From: a bacterium
GTDB taxonomy: Bacteria > JAHJDO01
Direction: 5' to 3'
Length of the DNA stretch: 64,000 nt
NCBI GenBank assembly: GCA_030652805.1
Contig: JAUSPT010000032.1
Coordinates: forward strand, 109,992 to 173,991
The notes under the pieces are model-generated. The model was not told where the DNA came from and made no database searches. It was given only the letters and a program-made list of their open reading frames with translations. Below are positions 21,315 to 58,628 of the stretch, piece by piece (the first letter of the stretch is position 1; every line of letters starts with the position of its first letter). The translations under genes were made by a program, and so were the position numbers.

Positions 21315-21322
21315 TCCTTTTT

Positions 21323-25308: not shown

Positions 25309-25325
25309 TTTTAATTTCTCCTACA

Positions 25326-26311: not shown

Positions 26312-28639
26312 CTATTGCGGAGGTCTAAACTTCTGGATTCTGCTATTGATAAGTTGACGTCTATTTCCAGTATCAGTTACATAAACATATCCTTTTGAGT
26401 CAAAAGCTATGCCGGTTGGTGAATTAAATTGACCGTCACCTCCCCCACGGCTTCCCCACTTAGTTATATAATTGCCGCTTGCATCAAAGACCTGAATCAT
26501 ATTTGCAGCACTAACTACAAACATATAGCCATTATTTATAGCTATTTTTTGCGGCCGCTGCCCAAGTCTACCGAACTTTAATAGAAAATTCCCTGCACTG
26601 TCAAACTTCTGAACATTGCCTAATTTATAATCCAGAGCATACACATTTCCTGATTCATCTGCTGCTACATCCCATATATAGCTAAACTGCGAATTGCCCG
26701 CGCCGCGTTTGCCCCAGGCAGTCAAATAGTTCCCATCTTTATCAAATTTTTGTATTCTGTAATGCCGGGTGTCTGCCACATAAACATTCCCCTCTTTATC
26801 TACTGCCACACCACGGGGTTGGTCAAGTTGACCTTTGCCATGCCCCCGCTTCCCAATGCTTGCAACCAACGTCCCTTCCGGACTAAACTTATTAATGGAA
26901 TATGTGGACATATTACAAATATAAACATTGCCCTCTTTATCAATATCAATATCCATTGGTCTGCCAATATCCTTATTCTGCCAGGCTGCCAAAAGATCCC
27001 CTTTGGGACTGAGTTTAAGGACACTGCTGTTTTGCTTGCCTACTGTATCTATTACATAAATATTATCTGAATTATCAATTGTTATACCCTGAATAAAATT
27101 TATCTGCGTATTCTGGCCAATAACACTATCAAATCTAAACAGTCCTCCTATTGGAATCTTCTTGCCGACAGGCCAAATCACTTTGTCTTTATCTACCTTA
27201 GCTAATTTCTCTTGCTTTTTCTGCTCCTTCTCCTCTACTCGTTCTTTAGGCTTTGCTTTTGCCTGCATTTCTGCTCTAATAATTCCCTCCATGGCAAGAC
27301 GTTTATACTCTCTGGCTTCTATATTGTCAGGAGAAAGCTCCAGAACAGCTTCAAAATTTTCTATGGCTAATTTGTATTCACCGGAATTTTGCGCGCCTAA
27401 GTTGAAATGTATCTTTCCCCTGGTAAGACTTGACTTTATCTTCTCTTCATTTTTCTTTCTCATCTCCACCAATCGCGAATCTTCTGCTTCAAGGACCTTT
27501 TTCTTTTCCGGCTCTTCTTCTTTAGTAACGACAGGTTTCTGCGATTCTATGTCTTTAGCGATTGTTTCTTCTACTTTCTTTTCCGCTGTTTTTACTTTAT
27601 CAATAGTGGACTTTTCAACAACATGCGGAGAAGGAATGTCTTTTTTGCCGGTACTTATTGCTATGTAAATACCAATAATTATAACCACTAACAAAACTGC
27701 TGGAACAATAGCCTTGATTGGTATCTTTGTTTTCTTAACAATATCCTTTGCCATAACAGTGACTCCTGCATCTCCAGGAATAGCTACCGTTTTGCCATCA
27801 GCTGTAGCAGGCTGACGAAGAAGCCTCTTAAGGAGTTGTATAACATCATTCATATCCTGATAACGCTGATTCTTATCTTTTTTCATGCACTTTAATACCA
27901 TTTCTTCTGTTTCAAGAGATATCTTGGGATTTTTAGCGCGCGGGCTGGGAATATCCTCATGCAGGTGTTTATAAGCAGTTGCAAATGGATCCTTGCCTTT
28001 AAAAGGGAGTTCCCCGGCTAACATGCGGTATGAGAGAACTCCAAAAGCATACATATCAGATTTGGAATCAACACCCGTGCCCTTGACCTGCTCAGGGGAC
28101 ATGTATTCCGGAGTTCCTATACTCATCCCTGTTTTGGTTTTAACGCTTGAATCCTGCACTTTGGCAATACCAAAATCCATTACCTTTATACTGCCGTCCG
28201 CTGCAATCATGATATTGCCGGGCTTAACATCGCGGTGAACAACTCCATGCTTATGAGCGTAGGAAAGAGCCATTCCAACCTGCTGCAGGATTTCTAAAGT
28301 AAAATCCAATGGAAGCGCTTTCTTTCTCTTTAACAACTCATCCAGTGTCTCGCCTTCAATGTACTCCATAATAATAAAATAATTGCCTTCCAACTGTTCA
28401 GTATCATATACTTGTATAATATTACGGTGATTCAGCTTGGCCACAGATAAAGCCTCCTGCTTGAACCTTGTTACAAAATCCTTATCTGAGGCTAGATTTT
28501 GAGGCAACATCTTCATAGCTACAGGACGATTAAGAGAAATCTGAATTCCCTTATACACAATCCCCATACCGCCTTCCCCAATCTTTTCTACAATCTTATA
28601 CTTGCCTACAATCTTCCCAACTAAATCTTCTTTTGACAT
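26312..28639 (-). CDS. transmembrane Ser/Thr protein kinase with C-terminal NHL-repeat beta-propeller
   Basis: 775 aa; Hanks kinase motifs (HRDVKPGNIMI, DFGIA, TPEYMSPE); TM helix (VPAVLLVVIIIGIYIAI); TPR-like linker; repeated NHL motifs (GNVYVAD/GNVYALD). Confidence 0.85.
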   Translation of the reverse strand: MSKEDLVGKIVGKYKIVEKIGEGGMGIVYKGIQISLNRPVAMKMLPQNLASDKDFVTRFKQEALSVAKLNHRNIIQVYDTEQLEGNYFIIMEYIEGETLDELLKRKKALPLDFTLEILQQVGMALSYAHKHGVVHRDVKPGNIMIAADGSIKVMDFGIAKVQDSSVKTKTGMSIGTPEYMSPEQVKGTGVDSKSDMYAFGVLSYRMLAGELPFKGKDPFATAYKHLHEDIPSPRAKNPKISLETEEMVLKCMKKDKNQRYQDMNDVIQLLKRLLRQPATADGKTVAIPGDAGVTVMAKDIVKKTKIPIKAIVPAVLLVVIIIGIYIAISTGKKDIPSPHVVEKSTIDKVKTAEKKVEETIAKDIESQKPVVTKEEEPEKKKVLEAEDSRLVEMRKKNEEKIKSSLTRGKIHFNLGAQNSGEYKLAIENFEAVLELSPDNIEAREYKRLAMEGIIRAEMQAKAKPKERVEEKEQKKQEKLAKVDKDKVIWPVGKKIPIGGLFRFDSVIGQNTQINFIQGITIDNSDNIYVIDTVGKQNSSVLKLSPKGDLLAAWQNKDIGRPMDIDIDKEGNVYICNMSTYSINKFSPEGTLVASIGKRGHGKGQLDQPRGVAVDKEGNVYVADTRHYRIQKFDKDGNYLTAWGKRGAGNSQFSYIWDVAADESGNVYALDYKLGNVQKFDSAGNFLLKFGRLGQRPQKIAINNGYMFVVSAANMIQVFDASGNYITKWGSRGGGDGQFNSPTGIAFDSKGYVYVTDTGNRRQLINSRIQKFRPPQ

Positions 28640-28645
28640 AACTAA

Positions 28646-30619
28646 TCACCTATGTTTTTTAATTTGTTTTTTGGCTTTTATGTAATACTCATCGTCAGGA
28701 GACGCAATCTCCAGTACCTGCTTCCATTTTTCTACAGCTCTATTGATATTAATATCCTTAAGAGTGTATCCTTGAATGTATAATTCCCTGGCTTTCTCCT
28801 TTATATGAACCTGAAGCTCGTTAATGTTCTCCAGCGCTTCTTTATGATCAGGCTCTACTGTTAAGACAAACTGAAATTCCAAAAGAGCTTCCTTAAATTT
28901 TTCTTCCTGAACAAAATTCTTGCCTTTCTCCATGTGCTGATGAAGTGTTTCTATTAGATAAGGCCTCACTGTTTTAATATACTGGATAGCCTCTGCATGA
29001 TAGAAATTATCTCTGTCCTGTTCCAGAGAAAGCACCTGCCTCCACTCATCAACAGCTTTCATAAGCTGCTGACTGGCGGAAAAAGACATGCCTCTGTCAA
29101 ATGCCTGAGTAACATCCTTTACTTTATCCAGAAACTCCTGCGCCTCTGTATAATCTTTGTTTATATCTAAGACCATTTGCATTAACTCAATGGCTTGAGA
29201 AGCACTTCCTTTTTGATAGAGTTTCTTTGCCTCGTCAAAAAACTTTTCCGCTTTTTGCAGATCTCCAATCTGAGCTACCAATCTTTTGGCTTCATTGGCA
29301 TATTTAGATTGTGCAGATATTTTTTCTAGTTCTACTAAGGCATTCGCATAATTCCCTTTTTCAAAAAACTCCTTCCCTTTTTCAAAGTGTCTAAGAGACA
29401 GCAGCTTATGTTCAATAAGATTAAGCTTTTCCCTTATATGAGCGTATTCAGGTTTTAAATCGAGTGCATTATTTAACTCTGTCTGCGCTTTAAGGAGTTC
29501 CTCAGCAATGATATACTCATCTGCCAGTTTAAGAGCTTTTTGAATCTGGATTTCTTTCTTGGTCTTGTTAAAGTATTCTATTCCTCTGCTATTCTCAGGA
29601 TCCAGGCTCAATACTCTTTCAAACTGGCGCAGAGCATTTTCCCATTGAGCCTTTTGATAAAGTTCAAGACCTCGTGTAAGGTAGCGAGCAATCTCTTCAT
29701 CACCTCTTGATTTTTCCACATAGATCTGCGCATCAAGATTATCCGGATCCATCTGCAAAACTTTGTTAAAAACTTCAAGCGCTTTGATTTTTTGGTCTGC
29801 TTCGTGTAATTTTTTACCCTGTTTGATGAGATTTGCAACAGTATTATCTGAGACCTCAATTATGCCCCTCTTTTCCGGAGAACGAGTTGGAATAAGACTC
29901 ATGATCAATATAATAGCCAAGATGACGCCAAACCCAATTATTCCTAACCTTATGGGTGTTTTTTTCCATGCCTCCACAAGCAGCCCCGCCTCTGAACATG
30001 ACCCCTCTGTTACAAACTTCAGAACAAATTTCCCAACTTTAATTTCATCTCCTTTAGAGAGCGCTTTTTCCTTGATCTTATTATTATTAACAAAAGTCCC
30101 ATTGCTGCTTCCAAGGTCTGCTATTTTATATTGATTATTCTCCTTCTTAACTATGGCATGTTTTCGAGATACTGTCTCATTTTTAAGAACTATTTTATTT
30201 TCTTCAGCCCTGCCAATAGTCAATTCATCTTCGTCCAACTGATACTCCTCTTTAACTCTCGCCCCTTCCATTAACATCAGTCTATATTTTGGAGACGTAT
30301 AAGACCCGGGTGCCATTCTGGTTTTTTCTCCATCGTCACTTTTTAGTTCTAAACTATATTTCCCGATCTGAACAGTATCTCCTTCATTAATGGTCTCTTT
30401 TTCTATTTGTTCCCCATTTACAAAGACTCCATTGGCAGAGTTCAAATCCTGGATAGTCACATTCTCTGCCTTAATTTCTAATTGGGCATGTTGTCTTGAA
30501 ACACTCTTATCAGGAAGAACTATGCGGTTTCCTTCCTTTCTTCCAATGAGATATACTCCGTCTTCCAAAGATAACTCTTGAACTGATTTTTCGTTTTCTT
30601 TAATGATAAAAAATTTCAT
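28646..30619 (-). CDS. tandem-FHA-domain protein with TM helix and C-terminal TPR repeats
   Basis: 657 aa; two FHA cores (SRQHAQLE…NSANGVFVNG and SRKHAIVK…SSNGTFVNN); TM (IGFGVILAIILIMSLI); long TPR-like region. Confidence 0.8.
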   Translation of the reverse strand: MKFFIIKENEKSVQELSLEDGVYLIGRKEGNRIVLPDKSVSRQHAQLEIKAENVTIQDLNSANGVFVNGEQIEKETINEGDTVQIGKYSLELKSDDGEKTRMAPGSYTSPKYRLMLMEGARVKEEYQLDEDELTIGRAEENKIVLKNETVSRKHAIVKKENNQYKIADLGSSNGTFVNNNKIKEKALSKGDEIKVGKFVLKFVTEGSCSEAGLLVEAWKKTPIRLGIIGFGVILAIILIMSLIPTRSPEKRGIIEVSDNTVANLIKQGKKLHEADQKIKALEVFNKVLQMDPDNLDAQIYVEKSRGDEEIARYLTRGLELYQKAQWENALRQFERVLSLDPENSRGIEYFNKTKKEIQIQKALKLADEYIIAEELLKAQTELNNALDLKPEYAHIREKLNLIEHKLLSLRHFEKGKEFFEKGNYANALVELEKISAQSKYANEAKRLVAQIGDLQKAEKFFDEAKKLYQKGSASQAIELMQMVLDINKDYTEAQEFLDKVKDVTQAFDRGMSFSASQQLMKAVDEWRQVLSLEQDRDNFYHAEAIQYIKTVRPYLIETLHQHMEKGKNFVQEEKFKEALLEFQFVLTVEPDHKEALENINELQVHIKEKARELYIQGYTLKDININRAVEKWKQVLEIASPDDEYYIKAKKQIKKHR

Positions 30620-31674
30620 CTTTTTCCCTCTGCTGATCCTTTTGCTAAATGTTCCTCTACCTGCTTTAGACGTTTTAGCACTGTTTTATGCCTCTCATCC
30701 TTTCTATCAGATATCAAAGCCATACATATTTTGAGCTCTTTTTTAACCTGTTTCCAATCTTTCACACGAATATCCTTTTCAGCTTCAAATTTATGAATGC
30801 GATATTCGCTGTCCAGGTATTCCTTAGCTTCCTTTAGATTCAGGAGCGTCTGATGGAAATAATCCGGCTTTGGCTCCAGATGTCTCTGATAAGCCAGAGA
30901 CTTTTGATATGCTTCAATTGCCTTATAGGTATTCTCATAACTTATCATGCGTTCATTATAAAGAGCTTCCCCGTATTTAAAAGCCTCTTTTGCTTTATCT
31001 CTAATATTCCCAACGGGTTCACCGGTTCCTCTATCAATTTTTTCTATTATCTGTGGTTTTTTAGCACTTGTCTCCCCCTGGCTTTTTTCGGAAGACTTGT
31101 GCCCTGGCAGAAGCACATAAATTAGACCGGATATTACAGCTGCTATGAGTATAATCTTTGTGATGTTTTTTTTAGCATAAGTTGGATTCTTTATATTGGC
31201 GAGGATTTTTTCTTTAGACTTTTGAGCTTTTTGGGAGATACTGGGTTCTGCTAGTACCTTTCTGGAGACAGGGGTAGGCACAGGTTTAATAGCGAAATAC
31301 TCGGTTTTTCCATCTTGCTCAGATATTTCCTCCCCGACTATCGTTGCACTGGTCTCTCCTGATGAATTAACCTGCTCAGGGATTACTTCAAAAGCGAGAC
31401 CAACTCCTCCAACTTCAATTTTATCACGATCCTTCAACTCCTGACGCGATACTTTCCTGTCATTTACCTTTGTGCCATTCTTGCTCTCCAGGTCAACCAA
31501 TATCAGTTTTTCATCTTCTAAAACTATCTTGGCATGATGACGAGAGACCGTATCATTTCCTTCCAATACAATATTATTATCCTGCACTCTTCCAATAGTA
31601 CAGGGTTCATTATCAAACTCAAAACATTCCCCTGCTTTTAACCCGTTCCTTATAGAGACCTTATATCCTGGCAT
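30616..31674 (-). CDS. FHA-domain membrane protein
   Basis: 352 aa; FHA core (SRHHAKIV…SKNGTKVND); TM (ITKIILIAAVISGLIYVLL). Confidence 0.7.
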   Translation of the reverse strand: MPGYKVSIRNGLKAGECFEFDNEPCTIGRVQDNNIVLEGNDTVSRHHAKIVLEDEKLILVDLESKNGTKVNDRKVSRQELKDRDKIEVGGVGLAFEVIPEQVNSSGETSATIVGEEISEQDGKTEYFAIKPVPTPVSRKVLAEPSISQKAQKSKEKILANIKNPTYAKKNITKIILIAAVISGLIYVLLPGHKSSEKSQGETSAKKPQIIEKIDRGTGEPVGNIRDKAKEAFKYGEALYNERMISYENTYKAIEAYQKSLAYQRHLEPKPDYFHQTLLNLKEAKEYLDSEYRIHKFEAEKDIRVKDWKQVKKELKICMALISDRKDERHKTVLKRLKQVEEHLAKGSAEGKR

Positions 31675-32023
31675 TAACCATATCTCCTATACGAACCTGA
31701 GCGCTACTAATGGTGTCAGAGGGAAGTTCCAGCACATGCCGTACGCTTCTTCCTCCAAAAGCCAGCCGAAATGGTTTTAACTGAGATATAGTCTTTACAA
31801 CACAATAATTCTTATCCATAAAAACCACATCAATCGGGAACCTCATAAACCACGTATGTATGGCTTTGCAGTTTTTAATCAGTAATCCCTCTCCAGAATC
31901 AAGTTTAGCGCGTCCAATCAGCCCCTTAGTTCTCATTTGCCATGTATCTGCAACAACCACTCGTTGTCCTAAAATCTGATTATTACCAAAACTGATCACT
32001 ATAGTTGTCTCTCTAGAATCCAC
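31661..32023 (-). CDS. DUF192 (COG1430) family protein, common accessory of Tad loci
   Basis: 120 aa; pattern typical of DUF192 (…TWFMRFPIDVVFMD…). Confidence 0.5.
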   Translation of the reverse strand: MDSRETTIVISFGNNQILGQRVVVADTWQMRTKGLIGRAKLDSGEGLLIKNCKAIHTWFMRFPIDVVFMDKNYCVVKTISQLKPFRLAFGGRSVRHVLELPSDTISSAQVRIGDMVNARI

Positions 32024-32930: not shown

Positions 32931-32975
32931 TTTCCCCTTTGTGCCTTTGTGCCTTTGCCACTTTGTTTCTTTATC

Positions 32976-35530: not shown

Positions 35531-35533
35531 TCA

Positions 35534-36892
35534 CTATTCTCCCTGCAGTAATTGCATAGCCTTTCCTGTTTTTTGGGCAGGAATAAAGGTCGGAGTAGTA
35601 GGAGTCACCAGAACTATAATCTGTTTCTTCTCCTTTTCTGCCTGCTTCTTGGAAAATAACAGCCCCAGTACTGGAATTTGCCCTATACCAGGAGTGTACT
35701 TTTTGAAATCTGAAGCAAGCACGTCTGTAACACCTGAAAGAATCACTGACTGGCCCGGTTTAATAACTACATCAGACTCAGAACGATAAACCTTAAGTCC
35801 TGTTCTATCCTCGACTGTAGGATCAACCTGACTGACCTCCAGATTGATATGCATAGTTACCTCTCCAAAACTGTCCACCTCCGGCTTAACCTTAAGCAAC
35901 ATTCCATACTTCTTCCATTTAACATCTGCAGAACCACTTCCTGCTACTTTATATCCAATTTCGCCTCCATGTTCAAAAACAGCTTCTCCGCCGCTTAATG
36001 CAGACTGATGCAAAGACTTCCTTATAGTAGCATTCCCCTTAGAATGAGTAAAATTTAATGCCTTGGTCAGGTTATATCCTATATTCCAGCTGGGTCCGGC
36101 TCCCCCTGTACTTGCAAGACCTGCTCCGCCAGCTAATGTGCCTCCAAGCAGATTCATTCCCATATCCTTTCCTGCTACAGCGTTTATTTCTGCAAATTGG
36201 ACATCTACTTCTATCATAACCTTTTTTACTTTTAGAAGATTGATAACGTTTTCAGCAAATGCGCCTGCTATTTTTTCAACCTCCTTGGACTCTTCTTCTC
36301 CCACTACAAAACCTCTCAGAATAACCCTGTTTCCAATAATCTTAACATTCACATTTGGGATCCCGATATTCTTTTTAATTTCCTCTGCCAGAATTTCATT
36401 ATGAATCCCAGTGCGTATCTTCACCAGATTTATTACCTCTGGGTATGCTGCAGCAACTTTTTCTACTCTTTCTTTATCAGAAGCAGTCAAAACGGATCCA
36501 TCAATAACCACTTTACCCCCGACTACCTTGACTTTTATTCCTTCTACATCGCTTAATAACTGACGAACTTCTTCAGCAAACTGCCTTGGGTCTCTTGAAA
36601 TAACATAGATAGCATGGGTAACTTTTTCCTCTTTGCTGTCCCATATAATAAGATCTGTAGTTCCAACTTTTATGCCTGTAATAATTATCTGCTCACCACC
36701 AGCAACCACCTGAACATTAGCTACTTTATCATCTCCAACTGAAACACGCGCCAACTTCTTCACATCCACTACCTGCTGCTGCCCAACAGAAACAGTAATC
36801 GCTTTCTGTCCATAGACAACGCTTCCCATAAATAGTATGCAGATCGCTGCTGTCCATACTCCGACCAATCCTGTCTTTTGCTTAGTGTTCAT
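35534..36892 (-). CDS. cpaC: Flp pilus secretin CpaC/RcpA
   Basis: 452 aa; signal peptide; BON-like N-terminal repeats; secretin C-terminus (…IPVLGLLFSKKQ…IVLVTPT…). Confidence 0.75.
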   Translation of the reverse strand: MNTKQKTGLVGVWTAAICILFMGSVVYGQKAITVSVGQQQVVDVKKLARVSVGDDKVANVQVVAGGEQIIITGIKVGTTDLIIWDSKEEKVTHAIYVISRDPRQFAEEVRQLLSDVEGIKVKVVGGKVVIDGSVLTASDKERVEKVAAAYPEVINLVKIRTGIHNEILAEEIKKNIGIPNVNVKIIGNRVILRGFVVGEEESKEVEKIAGAFAENVINLLKVKKVMIEVDVQFAEINAVAGKDMGMNLLGGTLAGGAGLASTGGAGPSWNIGYNLTKALNFTHSKGNATIRKSLHQSALSGGEAVFEHGGEIGYKVAGSGSADVKWKKYGMLLKVKPEVDSFGEVTMHINLEVSQVDPTVEDRTGLKVYRSESDVVIKPGQSVILSGVTDVLASDFKKYTPGIGQIPVLGLLFSKKQAEKEKKQIIVLVTPTTPTFIPAQKTGKAMQLLQGE

Positions 36893-36919
36893 GTTTTTTC
36901 CTCCTTGTTTTTGTTTTAA

Positions 36920-37750
36920 TCAGAATTGTTCAATAGTTTTAACTCCGCCCTTAATTACTTCCACCTTGATTCTGTCCTGACGCTGGATAGTAAGTTTTTT
37001 AACCTGCTCCAGCTGCAAAATAGAACTCATTGTAATTTTCGGCATGTCTGGTATCACCTCTAAGTCTTCCGGATTGCGCAGAACAAGTGTTATTTTCCCT
37101 CTTGCTTGAGCAAAGATAATCATTTCCGCCTCCTGGAGCGTTAAAGAGAGAGTTACAGTATTATATCCTCTCCTTAGCATTGCTGCTGTAGAGTGCGTTT
37201 CCTCTACATCCACTCTTTTGCGTCCTACTTCCTGCCCTACAGCCAGAACAGTTACATTCTGAAGAAGAGTGAGAGTTGTTATCCCTGCTGCTTTTTCTCC
37301 TTCCACTGTAAAATTTGCAGCAAGATCTACATGATCATTCGGCTGGATATGTCCACCTACCCCTGTTACTTCATCTACAGAAATGGTTACTGCTCTCTCT
37401 TTCTGCCTTATGAGCGGAGATAATCCTTCCATCTTCTCCATCCCAAGACAGAGCCATGTTAACTGCTGACCTTTTTTTAGTAAAAACAACGTCTTCTGAC
37501 CTTGTATTATCTCAATATCATCAGGGTTTAATGCATTGGGATCTTTAAACTTACGAGGCACCTGCGAAATTTCTACCATTCCCTTAGAAATTTTCTCTTT
37601 TGCCTTTATATCCTTTGCTGCTACAAGAACGCTTACCAGCTCCTTTCCCTTAAAAATTGGTCTTGTAACACCTTGAATATAAAAATGCACCATGACTATC
37701 GCTAAAAGACCTAATACAACTCCCATTATTAATGAAGCTTTATTCTGCAT
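36920..37750 (-). CDS. cpaB: Flp pilus assembly protein CpaB/RcpC (SAF domain)
   Basis: 276 aa; N-terminal TM; SAF/RcpC-like periplasmic domain. Confidence 0.65.
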   Translation of the reverse strand: MQNKASLIMGVVLGLLAIVMVHFYIQGVTRPIFKGKELVSVLVAAKDIKAKEKISKGMVEISQVPRKFKDPNALNPDDIEIIQGQKTLFLLKKGQQLTWLCLGMEKMEGLSPLIRQKERAVTISVDEVTGVGGHIQPNDHVDLAANFTVEGEKAAGITTLTLLQNVTVLAVGQEVGRKRVDVEETHSTAAMLRRGYNTVTLSLTLQEAEMIIFAQARGKITLVLRNPEDLEVIPDMPKITMSSILQLEQVKKLTIQRQDRIKVEVIKGGVKTIEQF

Positions 37751-37768
37751 ATCTACCTCCCTTTTTTA

Positions 37769-38527
37769 TTAACTTATTTTAATTATTGTAGCATAGTTAT
37801 TCGTTTTGTCATTATTTTCATCTGGAAAAACAATCAAACATTTTCCATCCTTTTTCTGAGCGCTGAGTAAATCGCCACTATCATCCAGCTTCCACCCATT
37901 CATTTTTAATCGGCTCTGATAAAAGAACTTCTGTGTGGTTGAGGAAGCAAGGCTTTTATACATTAGCACTTTATAATTTACGCCTCCAACTCCAAGCTCA
38001 AAGCTGAGCGCCTCAGAATTTAGCGGGTAGATAGGTATATCCTTGATAAAATCCTCCTCAACATTTGATTCTCTCCATTCCTCAAAACTTAAACAAAAAA
38101 TATGGCTTCCCGAGAGGTTGGTATCCCTCATAGGCAAGACAGCTATGCCAAGACTTGGCGATTTCAATTTTTTAGCCATAATAAACTCACTGCCGCCTAT
38201 ATTCTTCCTGCAATGAAGACCAAAATTTCTCGTTTTCAGGTCATTTGAAAATTGTTTTATTAGTGTTTGAGCGGATAATGGGGAATGGTATATGCCAATT
38301 AAAGCGGGCTTAGAGTTAATCTTCACACGATAAGACTTGCCTGCCATATCTCTCATCATATCCGGAAGATTGAAACGTTTTTGGTTAATCTTATCCTGCA
38401 GTTCATAAATAAGCCCATAAACCTTATCTTGTCGACCGCCCTTTATTAAACCGTAACAACTCAAAGCAATAGTCAAAATAGCTATTAGAAGAACCTTCCC
38501 TGTGATTTTTGTTACTTGCCTTATCAT
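37769..38527 (-). CDS. hypothetical membrane-anchored protein within the Tad locus
   Basis: 252 aa; N-terminal TM (VLLIAILTIALSCYGL); no recognisable motif. Confidence 0.3.
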   Translation of the reverse strand: MIRQVTKITGKVLLIAILTIALSCYGLIKGGRQDKVYGLIYELQDKINQKRFNLPDMMRDMAGKSYRVKINSKPALIGIYHSPLSAQTLIKQFSNDLKTRNFGLHCRKNIGGSEFIMAKKLKSPSLGIAVLPMRDTNLSGSHIFCLSFEEWRESNVEEDFIKDIPIYPLNSEALSFELGVGGVNYKVLMYKSLASSTTQKFFYQSRLKMNGWKLDDSGDLLSAQKKDGKCLIVFPDENNDKTNNYATIIKIS

Positions 38528-39505
38528 TTAGTGCACCATTAGTATCCTATCAAAACCTGTTTTGTCAAATTTTGCCTTGTAGTTTGGATCGGGAAGTATA
38601 TTGAATTTAACTTTGCTTCCGATATGCCCTTTTGTTTTATCTTTATCCTCCTTCCATAAGCTTTCTATCCATGAGAAAATAAGATCAGCACCTTTAGTAA
38701 CTTTAGGAATTTCTCCTCCAAGACTTCCTCCATATGGAACAGCCTTGGCTGTTGTATAAATAGATGGTATATTAATACCCAGAAGAGAGCCGCCTATCAG
38801 GACTGGTTGAGAACCCTTGTAAGCAAGAGAAAAGGTATAGACATCTTCTCCGCCTGTCATAAATCCCAACCAGCCACTGGCGCAAAGAAAATACTTAGCC
38901 CTGTCTACATTTAACCAGCATGGAATTAACGAGGTGAGAGAGCTCCAGCCAAAATTCCCTCCTTTTATATCATCGTAAAAGCTTTTACCGTCATCATAAA
39001 TTCCTTTTACGTCCTCTATACTGCTCATATTTACAAGACGCTCTGCCAAAGCAGTCGGCAGGGGAACAGCTGCATCAGCCTTATTAGCTCTGCCATATGT
39101 AAACACCTGAGTAATAGCAATAACAGGAACAGCATACTTCATAACATCCTGAATGGTTTGGACAATATTAGTAATAGTAAAATTCACATCTCCAGTGAAC
39201 CAGAGTTTAATGAGGTCAATAATAAATGCAGGAACCCATAGAATATTGAGCATTGCTATTACATTAAGTCCCCTTGCCTGCCATACTGCGCCTGCCATAG
39301 CAGCAGAATCAGTTGCATTCTGCATTCTGATGCGCCAGCTTACAAGCTGTCCCACGTCCACAACCAGCATTATGAACATAACCAGCACCAGAAGCATCAG
39401 CGCTGCAAAAACGGCAGCCTGCCCGCCGTTATCTTTTCTGAGCTTATGAATTTGAATAAACATTATAAGAGACTCGCTATTTCCCCTAACTGTTGTTTTA
39501 TCCAC
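38528..39505 (-). CDS. TadG-like putative Flp pilus-assembly protein (Tad_N domain)
   Basis: N-terminus GGQAAVFAALMLLVLVMFIMLVVDVGQL matches the TadE/G-like N-domain. Confidence 0.55.
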   Translation of the reverse strand: MDKTTVRGNSESLIMFIQIHKLRKDNGGQAAVFAALMLLVLVMFIMLVVDVGQLVSWRIRMQNATDSAAMAGAVWQARGLNVIAMLNILWVPAFIIDLIKLWFTGDVNFTITNIVQTIQDVMKYAVPVIAITQVFTYGRANKADAAVPLPTALAERLVNMSSIEDVKGIYDDGKSFYDDIKGGNFGWSSLTSLIPCWLNVDRAKYFLCASGWLGFMTGGEDVYTFSLAYKGSQPVLIGGSLLGINIPSIYTTAKAVPYGGSLGGEIPKVTKGADLIFSWIESLWKEDKDKTKGHIGSKVKFNILPDPNYKAKFDKTGFDRILMVH

Positions 39506-39966
39506 TTGATTATTTCATCCTTGGAGAAGCAGAACCCTAGAAAACGGCAGCTCCCCTTCACTGTAGTTCCTCCACCAAATATGGCTGATAAATAAGGTCC
39601 TGCTGGCACAGTATATGTTACATCCATCTTCGCGCTTCCTTTCGCCATCACATACGAGAGAAAACTTGCAAGGTAATTAGTTCCCGGGATAAAACTCATA
39701 TCCGGGAGCCCTGCTTCTCTTAACAAATCAAAGCTGGTATTGACATTTCCATGACCAAAGAATACAGCACCGGCTCCTCCGCCATCTCTCGTTTCCTTTA
39801 GAGCTCCTTCTCTGGCTGCTATGTAAACCTTTGATTGAGCCACCATAACCTTTCCAAAGTGAACAACAATCATCATAATGAGTATAAAAATCGGCAGGAC
39901 AATTGCTGCTTCTACTGCTGCCTGACCACTGTTAGATCTAATTAGCTTCATTCTAGTCCTCCACAT
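39463..39966 (-). CDS. TadE-like pseudopilin
   Basis: SGQAAVEAAIVLPIFILIMMIV TadE-like N-terminus. Confidence 0.6.
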   Translation of the reverse strand: MWRTRMKLIRSNSGQAAVEAAIVLPIFILIMMIVVHFGKVMVAQSKVYIAAREGALKETRDGGGAGAVFFGHGNVNTSFDLLREAGLPDMSFIPGTNYLASFLSYVMAKGSAKMDVTYTVPAGPYLSAIFGGGTTVKGSCRFLGFCFSKDEIIKWIKQQLGEIASLL

Positions 39967-40456
39967 TTATATTACAGCTTTGAGTAACTGGAAGATAATA
40001 TCTATCGCCATCCTGAATCCCAATTATTCTGCCAACCATGGGCATATTCAGTTTAAACTTGTATTTGACAGTAGTGGTATTACCCGATTGGCTAACTGTA
40101 GTATTAGATTGAGCATAAGAATACTGCTTAATTATTGTTGCTAGGTTCTGTGCCCAATCAGGAATGGGAATTTTTTCAAGAATTTCAGAAATTGCCGAAT
40201 CTAGAACCCCTCCCGAAGATTGACTGGAAATAGGTATCAGCGCAATGCTGGCAGCAAGTTTTGCTTTGTCCGCATCCTGATGCACAGAATATGAACGAGC
40301 TGCTGAAAAGGCAGCATAATTAGTTACTATATTGGCAGTTGCTATCAAAGCAAGCTGCATAATAGCCATGGCAAAGAGAATTAAAACAGGCATAACAATG
40401 ACAAATTCAACCATTGACTGGCCTCTGTTATTTATTCGCCTAAAGCATTTCTTCAT
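39953..40456 (-). CDS. TadE/TadF-like pseudopilin
   Basis: RGQSMVEFVIVMPVLILFAMAIMQ TadE-like N-terminus. Confidence 0.6.
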   Translation of the reverse strand: MKKCFRRINNRGQSMVEFVIVMPVLILFAMAIMQLALIATANIVTNYAAFSAARSYSVHQDADKAKLAASIALIPISSQSSGGVLDSAISEILEKIPIPDWAQNLATIIKQYSYAQSNTTVSQSGNTTTVKYKFKLNMPMVGRIIGIQDGDRYYLPVTQSCNINVED

Positions 40457-40956
40457 CTAAAAATCCATGCAATAAAGGTTCCAACACTCAGAGCCGCTCC
40501 ATAAGGAATCCTTTCACTGTTAGACAGCTTTAAAGCTTCCGTTTTTAACCCGGGCATAATAAAACTCAAAATAAGACGAAAAATATTTTTTAGCCCTCTC
40601 CAGAATGTCCCTTTCCATATCATTACCGCTATTGCCAGTATTCCGCCTGTCAGGATTCCATAAAAACAAGCATTCAAGATAAATGGATACCCTCCAACAG
40701 CTCCAACAGCAGCCATTAATTTAACGTCTCCTCCTCCTACTCCGCCAAAGACAAATACTATGGCAAAAACACAAAACCCAATAGCGAGCCCCAGCATACT
40801 GTTAACCAACCCGCCAACGCCATGATTCCAAACGTTAAGCAACAGCCCTACCGCCACAGCAGGAAAGGTTACACAATTGTATATCTTGTGTGTAATCAAG
40901 TCTGTAACCGCTGATACCAGCAAAAGCAATATTAGTAATATGTCTGAAAATGCCAT
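40453..40956 (-). CDS. tadV: prepilin peptidase CpaA/TadV (A24 family, no methyltransferase domain)
   Basis: 167 aa polytopic membrane protein; A24 pattern (LLLVSAVTDLITHKIYN…). Confidence 0.7.
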   Translation of the reverse strand: MAFSDILLILLLLVSAVTDLITHKIYNCVTFPAVAVGLLLNVWNHGVGGLVNSMLGLAIGFCVFAIVFVFGGVGGGDVKLMAAVGAVGGYPFILNACFYGILTGGILAIAVMIWKGTFWRGLKNIFRLILSFIMPGLKTEALKLSNSERIPYGAALSVGTFIAWIFR

Positions 40957-40964
40957 AAAGTTAA

Positions 40965-41165
40965 TTATTGCGCTGATTCTAAATCATCAGCTGCTTTTTC
41001 AACTTTTGCTGATAACTTGTCTCTAAAATACTGGAACGCAACTATAGCAGCAATGGCTATTAACACCACTATCAGAATATATTCTGTCATGCCCTGCCCT
41101 TCTTCTCCGAATATAATCCCTTTCATTAAGTTTTTAAGCTTCTTCATTTTGTCACCCCCTTTCAT
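40965..41165 (-). CDS. flp: Flp/Fap-family pilin
   Basis: 66 aa; leader then the G|MTEYILIVVLIAIAAIV motif. Confidence 0.75.
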   Translation of the reverse strand: MKGGDKMKKLKNLMKGIIFGEEGQGMTEYILIVVLIAIAAIVAFQYFRDKLSAKVEKAADDLESAQ

Positions 41166-41169
41166 TCAT

Positions 41170-41349
41170 TTATGGAATAGGTAAACTAATAAGACTTGCG
41201 ATTCTATTGTAATAAGTTTTTAGCGCCTTACGAAACATCTCAAAACAACCTGCCAGACAAAGAACAGCTATTACTGTTACAAGAACATACTCTGTCATCG
41301 CTTGCCCTTTTTCGTCCAGCAACAAGTTTTTTAAACTCTGTACAAACAT
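41170..41349 (-). CDS. flp: second Flp-family pilin (59 aa; below the ORF-track length cutoff)
   Basis: Manual translation of the minus strand gives MFVQSLKNLLLDEKGQAMTEYVLVTVIAVLCLAGCFEMFRKALKTYYNRIASLISLPIP, with the G|AMTEY Flp motif. Confidence 0.6.
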   Translation of the reverse strand: MFVQSLKNLLLDEKGQAMTEYVLVTVIAVLCLAGCFEMFRKALKTYYNRIASLISLPIP

Positions 41350-41355
41350 TAATTG

Positions 41356-42147
41356 CTACCTATAAGCTTCTACCAAAACAACTGTAATGTTATCAACTCC
41401 TCCAGCTTTATTAGCATAGTCTATCATTTCTTCTGCTGCTTTTGAAAGGTTATCTATATGTTTTTTTATAATATCCTCCATTGTCTTTCTTTCCAGCATA
41501 CCGCTCAGCCCATCGGAACATATGAGAAAAATATCTACAGGAACAATATCCTCTTCCTGTAGATCAACCTTGACCTCTTTCTCACTACCCAGAGCCCGTG
41601 TAATAACATTCTTCCAGCGATGCTGTTTGGCTTCCTCTTTCGTTATTACATTCTCTTTAAGTTGCTCATTAACCCATGAATGATCCTCTGTAATCTGCTT
41701 CAGCCTTCCATTTCTCATTAAATACACCCTGCTGTCGCCTACATGCACAACATACCCTTTCGCCTCAGCAATGGATAACCCTGCTATAGTTGTTCCCATT
41801 CCTTTAAGTTCAGGGTTAGAAAATGACATCTCATATATTTTCTTATTAGCAATTCGTACTGCGGTAAGGAGCTTATTAGCCTCAGGCGCTAGTTCTGGGT
41901 TCATCTCAAATGGCCAGGTAATATCATTGTCTTTGGCTGTGCGTTCAATAAAGGCCTTTATTAATTCGATAGATTTGCGACTTGCTACATCACCTGCTGC
42001 ATGCCCACCCATGCCATCAGCTACAAGATAAAGCTTCAGATCATCACTGACCAGAAAGCTATCTTCATTTAGCTTGCGCACTCTGCCTAAATCTGATAAG
42101 CCGTATGCTCTGAACTTCATCTCTAATTTTACTCCTGTAACTGCCAT
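41356..42147 (-). CDS. PP2C-family Ser/Thr protein phosphatase
   Basis: 263 aa; motifs LVADGMGGHAAGDVAS, ICSDGL and GGVDNITVV. Confidence 0.85.
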   Translation of the reverse strand: MAVTGVKLEMKFRAYGLSDLGRVRKLNEDSFLVSDDLKLYLVADGMGGHAAGDVASRKSIELIKAFIERTAKDNDITWPFEMNPELAPEANKLLTAVRIANKKIYEMSFSNPELKGMGTTIAGLSIAEAKGYVVHVGDSRVYLMRNGRLKQITEDHSWVNEQLKENVITKEEAKQHRWKNVITRALGSEKEVKVDLQEEDIVPVDIFLICSDGLSGMLERKTMEDIIKKHIDNLSKAAEEMIDYANKAGGVDNITVVLVEAYR

Positions 42148-42198
42148 ACTGGTTAATTCTAATACTTTTTCTATGCCTTTGTCAATTTTTTATACCAC

Positions 42199-46249: not shown

Positions 46250-46250
46250 T

Positions 46251-46496
46251 CTAACTCATTCTGCTGATATATGACGCCAGCAAGTGGATGGTTTGAGAGT
46301 TTTCTCGTGTTAGTCCTGATTCCATTAACTTTAGATTAAATGTTTTTTCAATAAACACCAGAAGCTCCACAAAGCTAAATGAATCAACTCCTAGTGTGTG
46401 AAGAGGAGCATTTGAAGAAATTGTTGAAGAGTCTACATCTAATATTGTAGCAATCTCTTGGATCAGTGTTTCCTCGATATGTTTTACAGTCAACAT
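46251..46496 (-). CDS. acyl carrier protein
   Basis: 81 aa; phosphopantetheine site LGVDSFSFVEL. Confidence 0.75.
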   Translation of the reverse strand: MLTVKHIEETLIQEIATILDVDSSTISSNAPLHTLGVDSFSFVELLVFIEKTFNLKLMESGLTRENSQTIHLLASYISRMS

Positions 46497-46511
46497 GCAG
46501 CTTGTATCCTT

Positions 46512-48673: not shown

Positions 48674-48700
48674 GAAACTCCGTTGAGAGAAAATGCGAAT

Positions 48701-48982: not shown

Positions 48983-49093
48983 TTAATCTTCTCCTATATT
49001 TAGCGGTATTCAACAAGCGATATCATATCCTCTTATTGCTCTTTTTTCAAGGAACAATTCCAACACGGTATAAGAGTGGATTTTTGGCAACCA

Positions 49094-58613: not shown

Positions 58614-58628
58614 TATTTATCATCCTTA

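What the first reader, a model, noticed from the sequence alone, without database searches (positions are those of the whole stretch)
26312..42147. Tad/Flp pilus locus with an embedded Ser/Thr-kinase / PP2C / FHA signalling module, including an FHA-CpaF ATPase fusion
One contiguous minus-strand gene array holds a complete Tad system: two Flp pilins, TadV, two TadE-like proteins, a TadG-like protein, CpaB, CpaC, TadB, TadC and DUF192. The CpaF/TadA motor ATPase carries an in-frame N-terminal FHA (phosphothreonine-binding) domain. The array is flanked upstream by a tandem-FHA/TPR membrane protein, a second FHA membrane protein and a transmembrane Hanks kinase with an extracellular NHL propeller. 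A PP2C phosphatase flanks it downstream. The arrangement implies that pilus assembly or secretion is gated by reversible Thr phosphorylation, read by FHA domains, with the NHL propeller as the likely extracellular sensor. Canonical Tad loci are regulated by response regulators or TadZ rather than this route. FHA-gated secretion is well known for type VI secretion (the PpkA/PppA/Fha1 threonine phosphorylation pathway) but is not an established feature of Tad pili. This makes the locus the strongest candidate for an undescribed regulatory system in the window.
Basis: partly seen in the sequence, partly recalled or inferred. Interest (0 to 1): 0.8.

Follow-up and report, generated by a model that had tools for sequence, protein, structure and literature searches.

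The report
Tad pilus operon with phosphothreonine switch
An uncultured bacterium packs a complete Kil-type Tad pilus machine and its own threonine kinase, phosphatase and phosphothreonine-reading (FHA) proteins into one operon, pointing to the enzymes behind a signalling step so far only guessed at for these machines.

Summary
Bases 26312-42147 hold 17 tightly packed minus-strand genes. In transcription order they are a PP2C phosphatase, two Flp pilins, TadV, two TadE, TadG-like, an unknown 252-aa protein, CpaB, CpaC, FHA-CpaF, TadB, TadC, DUF192, an FHA membrane protein, a tandem-FHA/TPR membrane protein and a Hanks kinase with an NHL propeller. FHA-fused CpaF is already described as KilF of the Myxococcus Kil system and as 'class III' CpaF. 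FHA-rich Kil clusters are published too, and their authors already drew the T6SS threonine-phosphorylation analogy. No kinase or phosphatase has been assigned in those papers. Three things appear new here. (1) A kinase/PP2C pair sits in cis and stays linked in four related genomes despite insertions; similar modules occur in distant lineages. (2) FHA-fused ATPases and TadZ are almost mutually exclusive across 163 loci. (3) A shared Thr motif ([EG]KT[ER]) lies in the disordered linker after the FHA domains of all three FHA proteins. Best reading: kinase-written pThr marks, read by four FHA domains, recruit or license CpaF at the platform in place of TadZ, and PP2C resets the system. This is a new variant of a known kind, of moderate interest.

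The parts
42156..42185 (-). Sigma-70-like promoter candidate (TTGACA-18-TAGAAT) in the 51-nt gap before the PP2C gene
   Evidence: Best match (11/12) in the 18.6 kb scanned. The total number of promoter-like sites is not above the shuffled expectation, so this is a candidate only.
41356..42147 (-). PP2C Ser/Thr phosphatase, 263 aa, no TM helix; first gene of the array
   Evidence: Pfam PP2C E=3.2e-14. NCBIfam Stp1/IreP equivalog 257.8 bits against a 230-bit cut-off. Motifs RxxNED, DGMGGH, GDSR, DGL and DN(I)T are present.
41170..41349 (-). Flp-like prepilin, 59 aa
   Evidence: Weak Pfam Flp_Fap hit, E=0.04. Carries the GQA-MTEY processing motif. A 59-aa ORF holds the same position in L166.
40965..41165 (-). 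Flp prepilin, 66 aa
   Evidence: Pfam Flp_Fap E=1.8e-4, below the gathering score. Carries the GQG-MTEY motif.
40453..40956 (-). TadV/CpaA prepilin peptidase
   Evidence: Pfam Peptidase_A24 E=1.9e-17.
39953..40456 (-). TadE-like minor pilin 1
   Evidence: Pfam TadE E=2.2e-10.
39463..39966 (-). TadE-like minor pilin 2
   Evidence: Pfam TadE E=3.5e-12.
38528..39505 (-). TadG-like protein. The longest ORF starts at a GTG; the true start is probably the ATG at 39463.
   Evidence: Pfam Tad (PF13400) E=5.4e-11. The orthologue in L166 is 311 aa.
37769..38527 (-). Conserved 252-aa protein of unknown family with an N-terminal hydrophobic segment
   Evidence: No Pfam or NCBIfam hit. Conserved in position in L081, L165, L166 and L167. 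The AF2 model is unusable, pLDDT 44.7.
36920..37750 (-). CpaB/RcpC
   Evidence: Pfam RcpC E=1.8e-27 and SAF.
35534..36892 (-). CpaC/RcpA secretin, 452 aa, short. Same domain set as KilC: pilus N-terminal region, BON, secretin.
   Evidence: Pfam Secretin E=2.1e-25, T2SS-T3SS_pil_N and BON. KilC domains are listed in PMC8460266, supplementary file 1.
33830..35530 (-). FHA-CpaF motor ATPase, 566 aa: FHA 1-96, disordered linker 97-137 containing T116, then the CpaF body
   Evidence: pThr-pocket residues R26, S40, H43 and N62 are present.
32976..33830 (-). TadB platform protein
   Evidence: Pfam T2SSF E=7e-21.
32013..32930 (-). TadC platform protein
   Evidence: Pfam T2SSF E=1e-16.
31661..32023 (-). 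DUF192 protein, which commonly follows TadC in Tad loci of all classes
   Evidence: Pfam DUF192 E=3.7e-19. Recurs after TadC in many loci.
30616..31674 (-). Single-FHA membrane protein, 352 aa: FHA 1-100, linker with T124, TM helix 171-189, helical periplasmic C-terminus
   Evidence: Pfam FHA E=9.8e-18. Hydropathy. The same position after TadC/DUF192 is held in L004, L090, L127 and L029.
28646..30619 (-). KilD-like protein, 657 aa: FHA1 1-96, linker with T100, FHA2 109-207, TM helix 225-243, periplasmic TPR region
   Evidence: Pfam FHA x2, E=3.9e-42, plus TPR. Collinear with the KilD-position ORF of Citreicoccus, BLASTP E=2e-21. The same 2xFHA+TM architecture occurs in L012, L076, L087, L005 and L127; L099's two-FHA protein has no detected TM helix.
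26312..28639 (-). Hanks Ser/Thr kinase, 775 aa: kinase 14-261, TM helix 310-328, periplasmic linker/TPR-like region and six NHL repeats (about 500-775); last gene of the array
   Evidence: Pfam Pkinase E=5.9e-59 and NHL E=8.8e-24. VAMK, HRDVKPGN, DFG and SPE motifs and six NHL repeats read in the sequence. Orthologues at 81-100% identity occur only in a narrow clade.

Best explanation
This is a single-operon, Kil-type (TadZ-less, FHA-type) Tad/Flp pilus machine with its own reversible threonine-phosphorylation switch.

Shown by sequence:
- All structural Tad parts are present: two Flp, TadV, TadE x2, TadG-like, CpaB, CpaC, CpaF, TadB and TadC.
- There is no TadZ.
- The array also encodes three proteins carrying four canonical FHA domains, a catalytically intact transmembrane Hanks kinase with a periplasmic six-repeat NHL domain, and an intact cytoplasmic Stp1-like PP2C.

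Inferred mechanism:
1. The NHL domain senses an envelope or periplasmic cue.
2. The kinase phosphorylates the conserved Thr in the disordered linkers that follow the FHA domains: T116 of CpaF, T124 of the 352-aa protein and T100 of the KilD-like protein. All three lie in an [EG]KT[ER] motif.
3. The FHA domains bind these pThr sites in trans. This builds a multivalent, membrane-anchored cluster that recruits or licenses the CpaF hexamer at the TadB/TadC platform. In canonical Tad systems TadZ/CpaE does this job.
4. The pilus (or Kil-like filament) is then assembled.
5. PP2C removes the marks and resets the machine.

Kinase, phosphatase and machine are co-transcribed, so control would be post-translational and fast rather than transcriptional.
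For: 1. Operon structure. The 17 co-directional genes overlap or are at most 45 nt apart. The best promoter-like site of the region lies just before PP2C.
2. Functional residues. All four FHA domains keep GR, SRxH and NG. Kinase and PP2C motifs are intact.
3. Architecture of the motor. AF2 gives FHA, a 40-residue disordered linker, then the CpaF body. This matches the published class III layout.
4. Shared Thr motif. [EG]KT[ER] occurs 5 times in 19.7k residues of window proteins, and 3 of these are the post-FHA linkers of the three FHA proteins. These Thr are invariant in clade relatives although the linkers carry indels. Myxococcaceae KilF-like and KilD-like linkers share a different Thr motif, M-T-R and RA-T-RAMP, against EK-T-RMAP here.
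5. Linkage within the clade. Relatives L081, L165, L166 and L167 keep the FHA-FHA-kinase trio, and PP2C where the contig extends, despite insertions and changed flanks.
6. Distant lineages. L029/L127 have kinase...CpaC-FHA-CpaF-TadB-TadC-FHA-2xFHA-PP2C. L126 has a kinase directly before CpaB-CpaC-FHA-CpaF. The Oligoflexia loci L020/L099 have FHA-2xFHA-PP2C next to Tad genes.
7. Survey of 163 loci. A separate TadZ gene is present in 67/74 loci with a plain ATPase and in 3/37 loci with an FHA-fused ATPase (0 adjacent; Fisher p=3e-18). A kinase lies within 10 kb in 10/32 FHA-fused loci and 0/74 others. Extra FHA proteins occur in 11/32 against 2/74.
8. Support from the literature. The KilD-like protein here is collinear with the myxobacterial KilD-position protein. 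In Myxococcus, KilD and KilF form prey-contact-induced clusters. KilD clusters form even without the Tad core, which points to an upstream signalling step (PMC8460266).
Against: - No phosphorylation, binding or phenotype data exist for this uncultured organism.
- The Thr motif was defined after looking at the sequences, so its p-value is inflated.
- The kinase has orthologues only in a narrow clade (81-100% identity, then only generic kinase-domain hits at about 40%). Kinases in other lineages have different architectures. The kinase is therefore not an ancient core component.
- PP2C enrichment near FHA-type loci is not significant (3/32 against 2/74). The L126 'PP2C' ORF failed Pfam at 1e-5.
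- The loci in the survey are phylogenetically non-independent, and several kinase neighbours lie on the other strand or in kinase-rich Myxococcota (L005, L022, L091).
- At 58-59% ATPase identity (L083, L084) no FHA protein, kinase or TadB/C gene lies within 10 kb. Linkage to the ATPase is therefore not universal.
- Some secretion-system FHA domains (SctD/YscD, EssC) act without phosphothreonine (my own knowledge).
Confidence: 0.55

Rival explanations
1. The FHA proteins are constitutive structural scaffolds of the machine: an inner-membrane ring or alignment complex, with the FHA domain of CpaF serving as a docking domain. They would work without phosphothreonine. The kinase and PP2C would then only modulate the machine or act on other targets.
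For: All FHA domains also match the T3SS SctD/YscD cytoplasmic-domain family (Yop-YscD_cpl, E=1e-14 to 1e-36). MXAN_4649 was likened to PrgH. FHA-CpaF proteins of Beta- and Gammaproteobacteria have a degenerate pocket (K/A/G) and lack FHA partner genes, so an FHA domain on CpaF can be kept without an evident pThr partner module. Two of the three FHA proteins are membrane-anchored with large periplasmic domains.
Against: In this locus all four pockets are canonical, and an intact kinase and phosphatase are co-transcribed. Canonical pockets tend to co-occur with FHA, kinase or PP2C neighbours: 9/14 against 10/33, p=0.05. The post-FHA linkers carry a conserved Thr motif.
Confidence: 0.2
2. The kinase/PP2C pair is a general Stk1/Stp1-type envelope or growth signalling module that happens to ride in the Tad operon. 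Its main substrates would lie elsewhere, for example in cell-wall or division proteins or the neighbouring T2SS.
For: The best NCBIfam matches are the housekeeping Stk1/PknB and Stp1/IreP families. Hanks kinases are often pleiotropic (my own knowledge). A T2SS cluster lies 3.5 kb downstream in the window.
Against: The pair brackets the Tad genes at both ends of one tightly packed array. In relatives the downstream flank changes and the T2SS is not adjacent in L081 or L167, yet the kinase stays with the FHA genes. There is no PASTA domain. Other lineages independently place kinases and PP2C in Tad loci.
Confidence: 0.12
3. The machine's output is not an adhesive pilus. It would be a Kil-like contact-dependent killing or host-attack device of a predatory or parasitic bacterium, with the phospho-switch firing on contact with a prey or host cell. 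This rival concerns the output and is compatible with the regulatory mechanism above.
For: The gene set matches Kil: FHA-ATPase, KilD-like protein, short BON-secretin and no TadZ. The SecA of a same-clade MAG is closest to Candidatus Omnitrophota at 55-63% identity. In that phylum Tad complexes have been linked to predation or parasitism (PMC10066038).
Against: No toxin or effector gene is recognisable in the array. The taxonomic placement is tentative. FHA-type loci also occur in lineages not known to be predators, such as Lentisphaeria, Acidithiobacillus and Burkholderiales.
Confidence: 0.35
4. The signalling genes are adjacent to a Tad locus by chance, with no functional link.
For: Kinase orthologues are confined to a narrow clade.
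Against: Five signalling genes lie in one operon-like array. Linkage persists through insertions. The arrangement recurs in unrelated lineages. Kinases and FHA proteins are strongly enriched around FHA-fused ATPases.
Confidence: 0.03

Closest known systems
Myxococcus xanthus Kil system: Tad-like contact-dependent killing apparatus with KilA/C/F/D and KilB/G/H plus MXAN_3104, 4648 and 4649 (Seef et al. 2021, PMC8460266)
   Same: Both have an FHA-fused CpaF (KilF), a tandem-FHA/TPR protein (KilD-like; collinear, E=2e-21), a single-FHA membrane protein next to the platform genes, a short secretin with BON and pilus N-terminal domains, and no TadZ. The gene order TadB-TadC-FHA-FHA/TPR mirrors KilG-KilH-MXAN_4649-MXAN_4648.
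   Different: Here all genes lie in one array, whereas Myxococcus has two or more clusters. Here a Hanks kinase and a PP2C are part of the array; none is named for Kil. DUF192 and a 252-aa unknown protein are present. The host is a different, uncultured, low-GC lineage (SecA nearest Omnitrophota), and its function is unknown.
Class III CpaF: N-terminal FHA, disordered region, then the CpaF core, e.g. Achromobacter xylosoxidans E3HIW0 (PMC12019362)
   Same: Same domain order. The AF2 model reproduces FHA, disordered linker, helical bundle, NTD and CTD.
   Different: The proteobacterial members sampled here have a degenerate pThr pocket (K/A/G in place of R/S) and lack FHA partner genes. The window protein has a canonical pocket and a full signalling set.
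Pseudomonas aeruginosa H1-T6SS threonine phosphorylation pathway, PpkA/PppA/Fha1 (my own knowledge; cited as an analogy in PMC8460266)
   Same: A transmembrane Hanks kinase with a periplasmic sensor domain, a PP2C phosphatase and an FHA protein are encoded in the secretion-system locus. Control of assembly is post-translational.
   Different: The machine is different (T6SS against a type IVc pilus). In T6SS one soluble FHA protein acts as scaffold and the motor is not FHA-fused. Here there are four FHA domains, one of them on the motor ATPase itself. The sensor domain is NHL rather than vWA.
Mycobacterium tuberculosis Rv1747 ABC transporter with PknF (my own knowledge; its FHA domain is PDB hit 6cah)
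   Same: A transport ATPase carries N-terminal FHA domains followed by a disordered Thr-containing linker. A neighbouring Hanks kinase phosphorylates the linker, and FHA-pThr binding drives self-association.
   Different: Rv1747 is an ABC exporter, not a PilT/VirB11-type hexameric motor. It has no membrane FHA partner proteins.
Canonical Tad/Cpa systems with TadZ/CpaE (Aggregatibacter, Caulobacter)
   Same: They share the Flp pilins, TadV, TadE/F/G-type minor pilins, CpaB, CpaC, CpaF and TadB/C core.
   Different: Canonical loci encode TadZ/CpaE (ParA-like with an atypical receiver domain) directly upstream of the ATPase; this was seen in 62/74 plain-ATPase loci here. This locus has none and has FHA modules instead.
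Sulfolobus archaellum regulators ArnA (FHA) and ArnB with Ser/Thr kinases (PMC4858521)
   Same: A type IV filament machine is placed under FHA and Ser/Thr-phosphorylation control.
   Different: [quoted passage not shown] Here the module is inside the operon and includes the motor.
M. tuberculosis PknD, a kinase with a TM helix and a six-bladed NHL beta-propeller (my own knowledge)
   Same: Same overall kinase architecture.
   Different: Only the kinase domain aligns with the PknD model (NCBIfam E=2.9e-41, far below its cut-off). The genomic context differs.

Membership tests
Tad/Flp (type IVc) pilus system | CpaF/TadA-type ATPase, two T2SSF platform proteins (TadB, TadC), an A24 prepilin peptidase lacking the methylase domain (TadV), Flp pilin(s), TadE/F/G-type pseudopilins, CpaB/RcpC and an RcpA/CpaC secretin | tested here: met
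   Pfam hits. CpaF structures 9e24 and 8rkd match at about E=1e-122. The Flp calls are weak by Pfam but carry the G-x-x-x-x-EY-type motif.
Tad/Flp (type IVc) pilus system | TadZ/CpaE (ParA/MinD-like with an atypical receiver domain) encoded in the locus | tested here: not met
   An HMM built from seven TadZ sequences finds none in the window. The same holds for 34/37 FHA-fused loci. The locus is therefore a non-canonical, TadZ-less Tad variant.
Kil-type Tad-like system (Myxococcus) | Central ATPase fused to an N-terminal FHA domain (KilF) | tested here: met
   Identity to the myxobacterial KilF-position ATPases L001 and L012 is 53-64%.
Kil-type Tad-like system (Myxococcus) | KilD-like FHA/TPR protein and further FHA proteins in the clusters | tested here: met
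   BLASTP E=2e-21, collinear over FHA1-FHA2-TM-TPR with L012:11289-13511. The architecture is shared.
Kil-type Tad-like system (Myxococcus) | Short secretin with BON and pilus N-terminal domains, lacking N0 | tested here: met
   Pfam finds T2SS-T3SS_pil_N, BON and Secretin only, in 452 aa. The T2SS secretin in the same window does have N0/Secretin_N.
Kil-type Tad-like system (Myxococcus) | Assembles at prey contact and is needed for contact-dependent killing | not testable with these tools
   The organism is uncultured and there is no phenotype.
Kil-type Tad-like system (Myxococcus) | Phylogenetic placement of the ATPase and platform proteins within the Kil clade | tested here: inconclusive
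   In a rough NJ tree of ATPase cores the window clade lies among FHA-fused sequences and outside the TadZ-associated clade. The backbone is unresolved and has no support values.
Threonine phosphorylation pathway of secretion systems (T6SS TPP type) | Hanks kinase, PP2C phosphatase and FHA protein encoded in the machine's locus | tested here: met
Threonine phosphorylation pathway of secretion systems (T6SS TPP type) | The kinase phosphorylates a machine component, an FHA domain binds it, and assembly depends on this | not testable with these tools
   Only candidate acceptor Thr residues were identified: T116, T124 and T100.
FHA domain (pThr reader) | Conserved Gly-Arg, Ser-x-x-His and Asn-Gly residues of the pThr pocket | tested here: met
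   Present in all four domains. In CpaF these are R26, S40, H43 and N62.
Hanks-type Ser/Thr kinase | Gly-rich loop, VAIK Lys, HRD catalytic loop, DFG and APE/SPE motifs | tested here: met
   GEGGMG, VAMK, HRDVKPGN, DFG and SPE read in the sequence. Pfam Pkinase E=5.9e-59.
PP2C (PPM) phosphatase, Stp1/IreP family | Score above the curated equivalog cut-off, with the metal-binding Asp motifs present | tested here: met
   257.8 bits against a 230-bit cut-off.

The most novel reading that the evidence does not exclude
In a large and widespread class of Tad machines (Kil-type), an FHA/phosphothreonine module has replaced TadZ as the system that positions and licenses the motor. A sensor Hanks kinase writes pThr marks on a short conserved motif in the disordered linkers of the motor and of two membrane scaffold proteins. 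Multivalent FHA-pThr binding (four readers, at least three sites) then nucleates a cluster where the pilus is built. A co-transcribed PP2C dissolves the cluster. This would be the missing contact-sensing cascade of the Kil system, and it would extend beyond predatory 'Deltaproteobacteria' to Omnitrophota-like, Lentisphaeria and Oligoflexia lineages.
Probability: 0.3. Interest if true: 0.7.

Novelty: new variant of a known kind. Interest (0 to 1): 0.55.

Why it matters
How Kil-type Tad machines are switched on at a contact site is an open question. The Myxococcus work shows that KilD clusters form upstream of the Tad core, and it suspects an FHA-based cascade, but it names no kinase or phosphatase. 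This locus places a complete candidate cascade in the same operon as the machine: a sensor kinase, a PP2C, four FHA readers and candidate acceptor threonines. It therefore yields concrete, mutable residues and a testable model that can be transferred to Myxococcus (the KilF M-T-R and KilD RA-T-RAMP motifs). The near-exclusive relation between FHA-fused CpaF and TadZ suggests two alternative ways of targeting the Tad motor. It also shows that TadZ-based definitions of Tad systems miss a large class. Finally, Kil-like gene sets turn out to occur outside the predatory lineages where they were first described.

Tried and rejected
- AF2 of the unknown 252-aa protein from a single sequence gave pLDDT 44.7. 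No fold search was attempted.
- Rfam found no RNA family in the window.
- A search for kinase orthologues outside the clade found none. Beyond 81% identity only generic kinase-domain hits appear. The idea of one conserved 'Tad kinase' family was dropped.
- The NJ tree of ATPase cores is unresolved, so a single origin for the FHA fusion cannot be claimed.
- Counts of promoter-like and terminator-like sites are not above the shuffled expectation. Only the position of the best promoter-like site is noted.
- The 'PP2C' ORF of L126 (phmmer hit, cut by the contig edge) was not confirmed by Pfam at 1e-5.
- Loci L083 and L084 (58-59% ATPase identity) lack TadB/C and signalling genes within 10 kb.
- Literature searches for kinase/PP2C control of Tad or Kil returned nothing relevant.
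- The idea that the kinase serves the adjacent T2SS was rejected, because that adjacency is absent in relatives.

Full report
**Observation**

ORF listing and Pfam/NCBIfam scans confirm an unbroken minus-strand array from 42147 to 26312. In transcription order it encodes:
- PP2C (263 aa)
- a 59-aa Flp-like protein and a 66-aa Flp
- TadV (Peptidase_A24)
- two TadE-like proteins and a TadG-like protein
- a 252-aa protein with no family match
- CpaB/RcpC and the CpaC secretin (pilus N-terminal domain + BON + secretin)
- FHA-CpaF (566 aa)
- TadB, TadC and DUF192
- a 352-aa FHA protein
- a 657-aa protein with two FHA domains and TPR repeats
- a 775-aa Hanks kinase with NHL repeats

Neighbouring genes overlap or are at most 45 nt apart. 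The best sigma-70-like match in the 18.6 kb scanned (TTGACA-18-TAGAAT) lies in the 51-nt gap before PP2C. The overall count of such sites is not above chance.

In the direction of transcription PP2C is first and the kinase is last.
- The NHL domain is periplasmic, because the locus has a secretin and the cell is a diderm.
- There is no TadZ/CpaE.

**Domain integrity**

- The four FHA domains align with all pThr-pocket residues intact (GR, SRxH, NG). In CpaF these are R26, S40, H43 and N62.
- The kinase has GEGGMG, VAMK, HRDVKPGN, DFG and SPE, one TM helix (310-328) and six NHL repeats.
- The PP2C has the RxxNED, DGMGGH, GDSR, DGL and DN motifs and passes the Stp1/IreP equivalog cut-off.
- The two FHA proteins each have one TM helix after the FHA region.
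- An AF2 model of FHA-CpaF, built with 37 homologues, gives a confident all-beta domain at 1-96, a disordered linker at 97-137 and the CpaF body. PDB sequence matches are to GarA/OdhI/Rv1747 FHA domains and to CpaF cryo-EM structures.

**What is already known**

- The FHA-CpaF fusion is KilF of the Myxococcus xanthus Kil system.
- The Kil clusters also encode MXAN_3104 (FHA), KilD (FHA+TPR), MXAN_4648 (FHA+TPR) and MXAN_4649 (FHA, PrgH-like).
- The Kil authors stress the over-representation of FHA proteins and propose a T6SS-like contact-triggered phosphorylation cascade (PMC8460266).
- A 2025 review still treats this as a hypothesis (PMC12428579).
- FHA-CpaF is also 'class III CpaF' in the CpaF cryo-EM paper (PMC12019362).
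- The fusion is very common: 118 of the best 120 homologue clusters carry FHA+T2SSE, from Myxococcota, Lentisphaerota, Kiritimatiellia, Planctomycetota, Schekmanbacteria, Aureabacteria and others.
- None of these papers names a kinase or phosphatase. Searches for Tad/Flp/Kil combined with kinase, PP2C or TadZ plus FHA found nothing relevant.

**Relation to Kil**

- The 657-aa protein is collinear (FHA1-FHA2-TM-TPR) with the ORF that follows the KilF-like ATPase in Citreicoccus (E=2e-21).
- The same 2xFHA+TM architecture recurs in L076, L087, L005 and L127; L099's two-FHA protein has no detected TM helix.
- The order TadB-TadC-(DUF192)-FHA-2xFHA/TPR mirrors KilG-KilH-MXAN_4649-MXAN_4648. It recurs in L004, L023, L090, L029/L127 and L005.
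- The secretin has the KilC domain set.

The locus is therefore a one-piece Kil-type Tad system.

Within the clade (ATPase 88-96% identical), four other assemblies keep the FHA-2xFHA/TPR-kinase/NHL trio at the 3' end:
- L081/L082 carry inserted toxin-antitoxin genes, a methyltransferase and ORF6N/Tricorn genes.
- L165 carries an inserted restriction-modification block between DUF192 and the FHA genes.
- L167 has a different downstream flank.
- L166 shows PP2C at the 5' end.

Analogous sets occur farther away:
- L029/L127 have a kinase (1061 aa, TM, Sel1), FHA (528 aa), 2xFHA (780 aa) and PP2C around CpaC-FHA-CpaF-TadB-TadC.
- L126 has a 1292-aa double-kinase protein directly before CpaB.
- The Oligoflexia loci L020/L099 have FHA-2xFHA-PP2C next to Tad genes whose ATPase is fused to TadZ.

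In contrast, L083 and L084 (58-59% identity) have neither TadB/C nor signalling genes within 10 kb of the ATPase. The kinase itself has orthologues only in the narrow clade. The association between Tad loci and pThr signalling genes is thus recurrent, but the kinases are lineage-specific.

**Survey of 163 loci**

ATPases fall into three classes: FHA-fused (46), TadZ-fused (21) and plain (86).

| Feature | FHA-fused loci | Comparison set | Fisher p |
|---|---|---|---|
| Separate TadZ gene | 3/37 (none adjacent) | 67/74 plain loci (62 directly upstream) | 3e-18 |
| Kinase within 10 kb | 10/32 | 0/74 all other loci | 2e-6 |
| Extra FHA proteins | 11/32 | 2/74 all other loci | 2e-5 |
| PP2C | 3/32 | 2/74 all other loci | not significant |

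These tests ignore phylogenetic non-independence. In a rough NJ tree all 77 TadZ-adjacent ATPases form one clade, and the FHA- and TadZ-fused ones occupy the unresolved remainder.

Within the FHA-fused ATPases, the Beta- and Gammaproteobacterial group has a degenerate pocket (K/A/G) and lacks FHA partner genes. The window clade, Myxococcota and others keep R/S.

**Candidate acceptor sites**

The linker after the FHA domain carries the same short motif in all three FHA proteins:
- CpaF: DEDEK-T116-EVKQ
- 352-aa protein: EQDGK-T124-EYFA
- KilD-like protein: DDGEK-T100-RMAP

[EG]KT[ER] occurs only five times in 19.7k residues of window proteins (the motif was defined post hoc). These Thr are invariant among clade relatives although the linkers carry indels. 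Myxococcaceae counterparts share a different Thr motif: P-x-M-T-R in KilF-like and RA-T-RAMP in KilD-like proteins.

This resembles the phospho-acceptor linkers of Rv1747, GarA and Fha1 (my own knowledge).

**Mechanism proposed**

- Shown: the anatomy, the intact motifs, the linkage and the TadZ/FHA exclusivity.
- Inferred: a periplasmic cue acts on the NHL kinase. The kinase phosphorylates the linker Thr residues. Four FHA domains bind them in trans. A membrane-anchored cluster forms, recruits or licenses CpaF at TadB/C in place of TadZ, and the filament is assembled. PP2C resets the system.

This fits the Myxococcus observation that KilD and KilF cluster on prey contact and that KilD does so without the Tad core.

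Rivals considered are phospho-independent scaffolding, a pleiotropic Stk1/Stp1 module, a Kil-like killing output rather than adhesion, and chance adjacency.

**Host**

- The kinase is 100% identical to an NCBI 'MAG: protein kinase [bacterium]' on a 184-kb contig.
- SecA from a same-clade MAG is closest to Candidatus Omnitrophota at 55-63% identity, so this placement is tentative.
- Omnitrophota Tad complexes have been linked to predatory or parasitic lifestyles without mention of FHA proteins or kinases (PMC10066038).

**Verdict**

This is a new variant of a known kind: a Kil-type, FHA-type Tad system with a cognate kinase/PP2C pair in cis. Interest is moderate (0.55). The basic idea is already published as a hypothesis. 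This locus, the TadZ/FHA exclusivity and the shared Thr motif make that hypothesis concretely testable.

Noticed in passing
window 10104-22742 (minus strand): A separate type II secretion / type IV pilus-like cluster lies 3.5 kb downstream of the kinase. It holds a GspD-type secretin with N0/Secretin_N, a GspE ATPase with an MshEN domain, GspF, a GspG-like protein, pseudopilins (T2SSJ, T2SSK), a PilM/PilN fusion and an ExeA-like AAA_22 protein. This adjacency is not conserved in relatives L081 and L167.
   Followed up: partly
window 14607-16475 (minus strand): A 622-aa ORF has its N-methylation motif and T2SSG domain only at residues 484-615. Either it is a major pseudopilin with a very long N-terminal extension, or the mechanical ORF start is far upstream of the real one.
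   Followed up: no
window 24700-26180; L165 9621-15328; L081 6776-8870 and 12721-14765: Restriction-modification and toxin-antitoxin-like genes sit at or inside the Tad array in different clade members. In the window an N6_N4 methylase and a MutH/MvaI-like nuclease follow the kinase. In L165 DUF1016, a methylase and a ResIII helicase lie between DUF192 and the FHA genes. L081 has DUF4160/DUF2442 and NTP_transf_2 pairs. The DUF192/FHA junction looks like an insertion hot spot.
   Followed up: partly
window 60645-61442 (minus strand): A second Hanks kinase consists of the kinase domain only (265 aa, Pkinase E=5e-54, no TM helix). It lies 18 kb from the Tad array, and its partners are unknown.
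   Followed up: no
loci L009, L010, L013, L014, L021, L049, L051, L058, L093, L094, L097 (genome and metagenome contigs): FHA-CpaF of Beta- and Gammaproteobacteria has lost the canonical pThr-pocket Arg/Ser (K/A/G instead), and these loci lack FHA partner genes. 'Class III CpaF' therefore probably mixes a pThr-reading type with a degenerate type.
   Followed up: partly
L020 110-4169 and L099 167-4313 (Oligoflexia-like): An FHA, 2xFHA, PP2C trio sits directly upstream of Tad genes whose ATPase is a TadZ::TadA fusion. The FHA/PP2C module is therefore not restricted to FHA-fused motors.
   Followed up: partly
window 42199-50619 (minus strand): Directly upstream of PP2C, on the same strand, lies a lipid-related block. 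It encodes an AMP-binding enzyme, an FAD oxidoreductase, a 441-aa protein with no family, an ACP, two ketosynthase-like proteins, PagL-like lipid A deacylase and a lipid A acyltransferase. It may remodel outer-membrane lipid. Only 51 nt separate it from the Tad array.
   Followed up: no
window 57624-59426 (minus strand): An archaeal-type 3-dehydroquinate synthase II lies next to a DeoC/LacD-family aldolase. This suggests the alternative entry into the shikimate pathway in this bacterium.
   Followed up: no
window 37769-38527 and 23230-24630 (minus strand): Two proteins have no Pfam or NCBIfam match. The 252-aa protein inside the Tad array is conserved in all clade relatives, has an N-terminal hydrophobic segment ending in Cys and may be a lipoprotein or pilotin. 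The 466-aa protein lies between the R-M pair and the T2SS cluster.
   Followed up: partly
L081 20432-20529 and L167 16956-17351: PilZ-domain genes lie a few kb beyond the kinase in two clade relatives but not in the window. This is a possible c-di-GMP link to the same machine.
   Followed up: no
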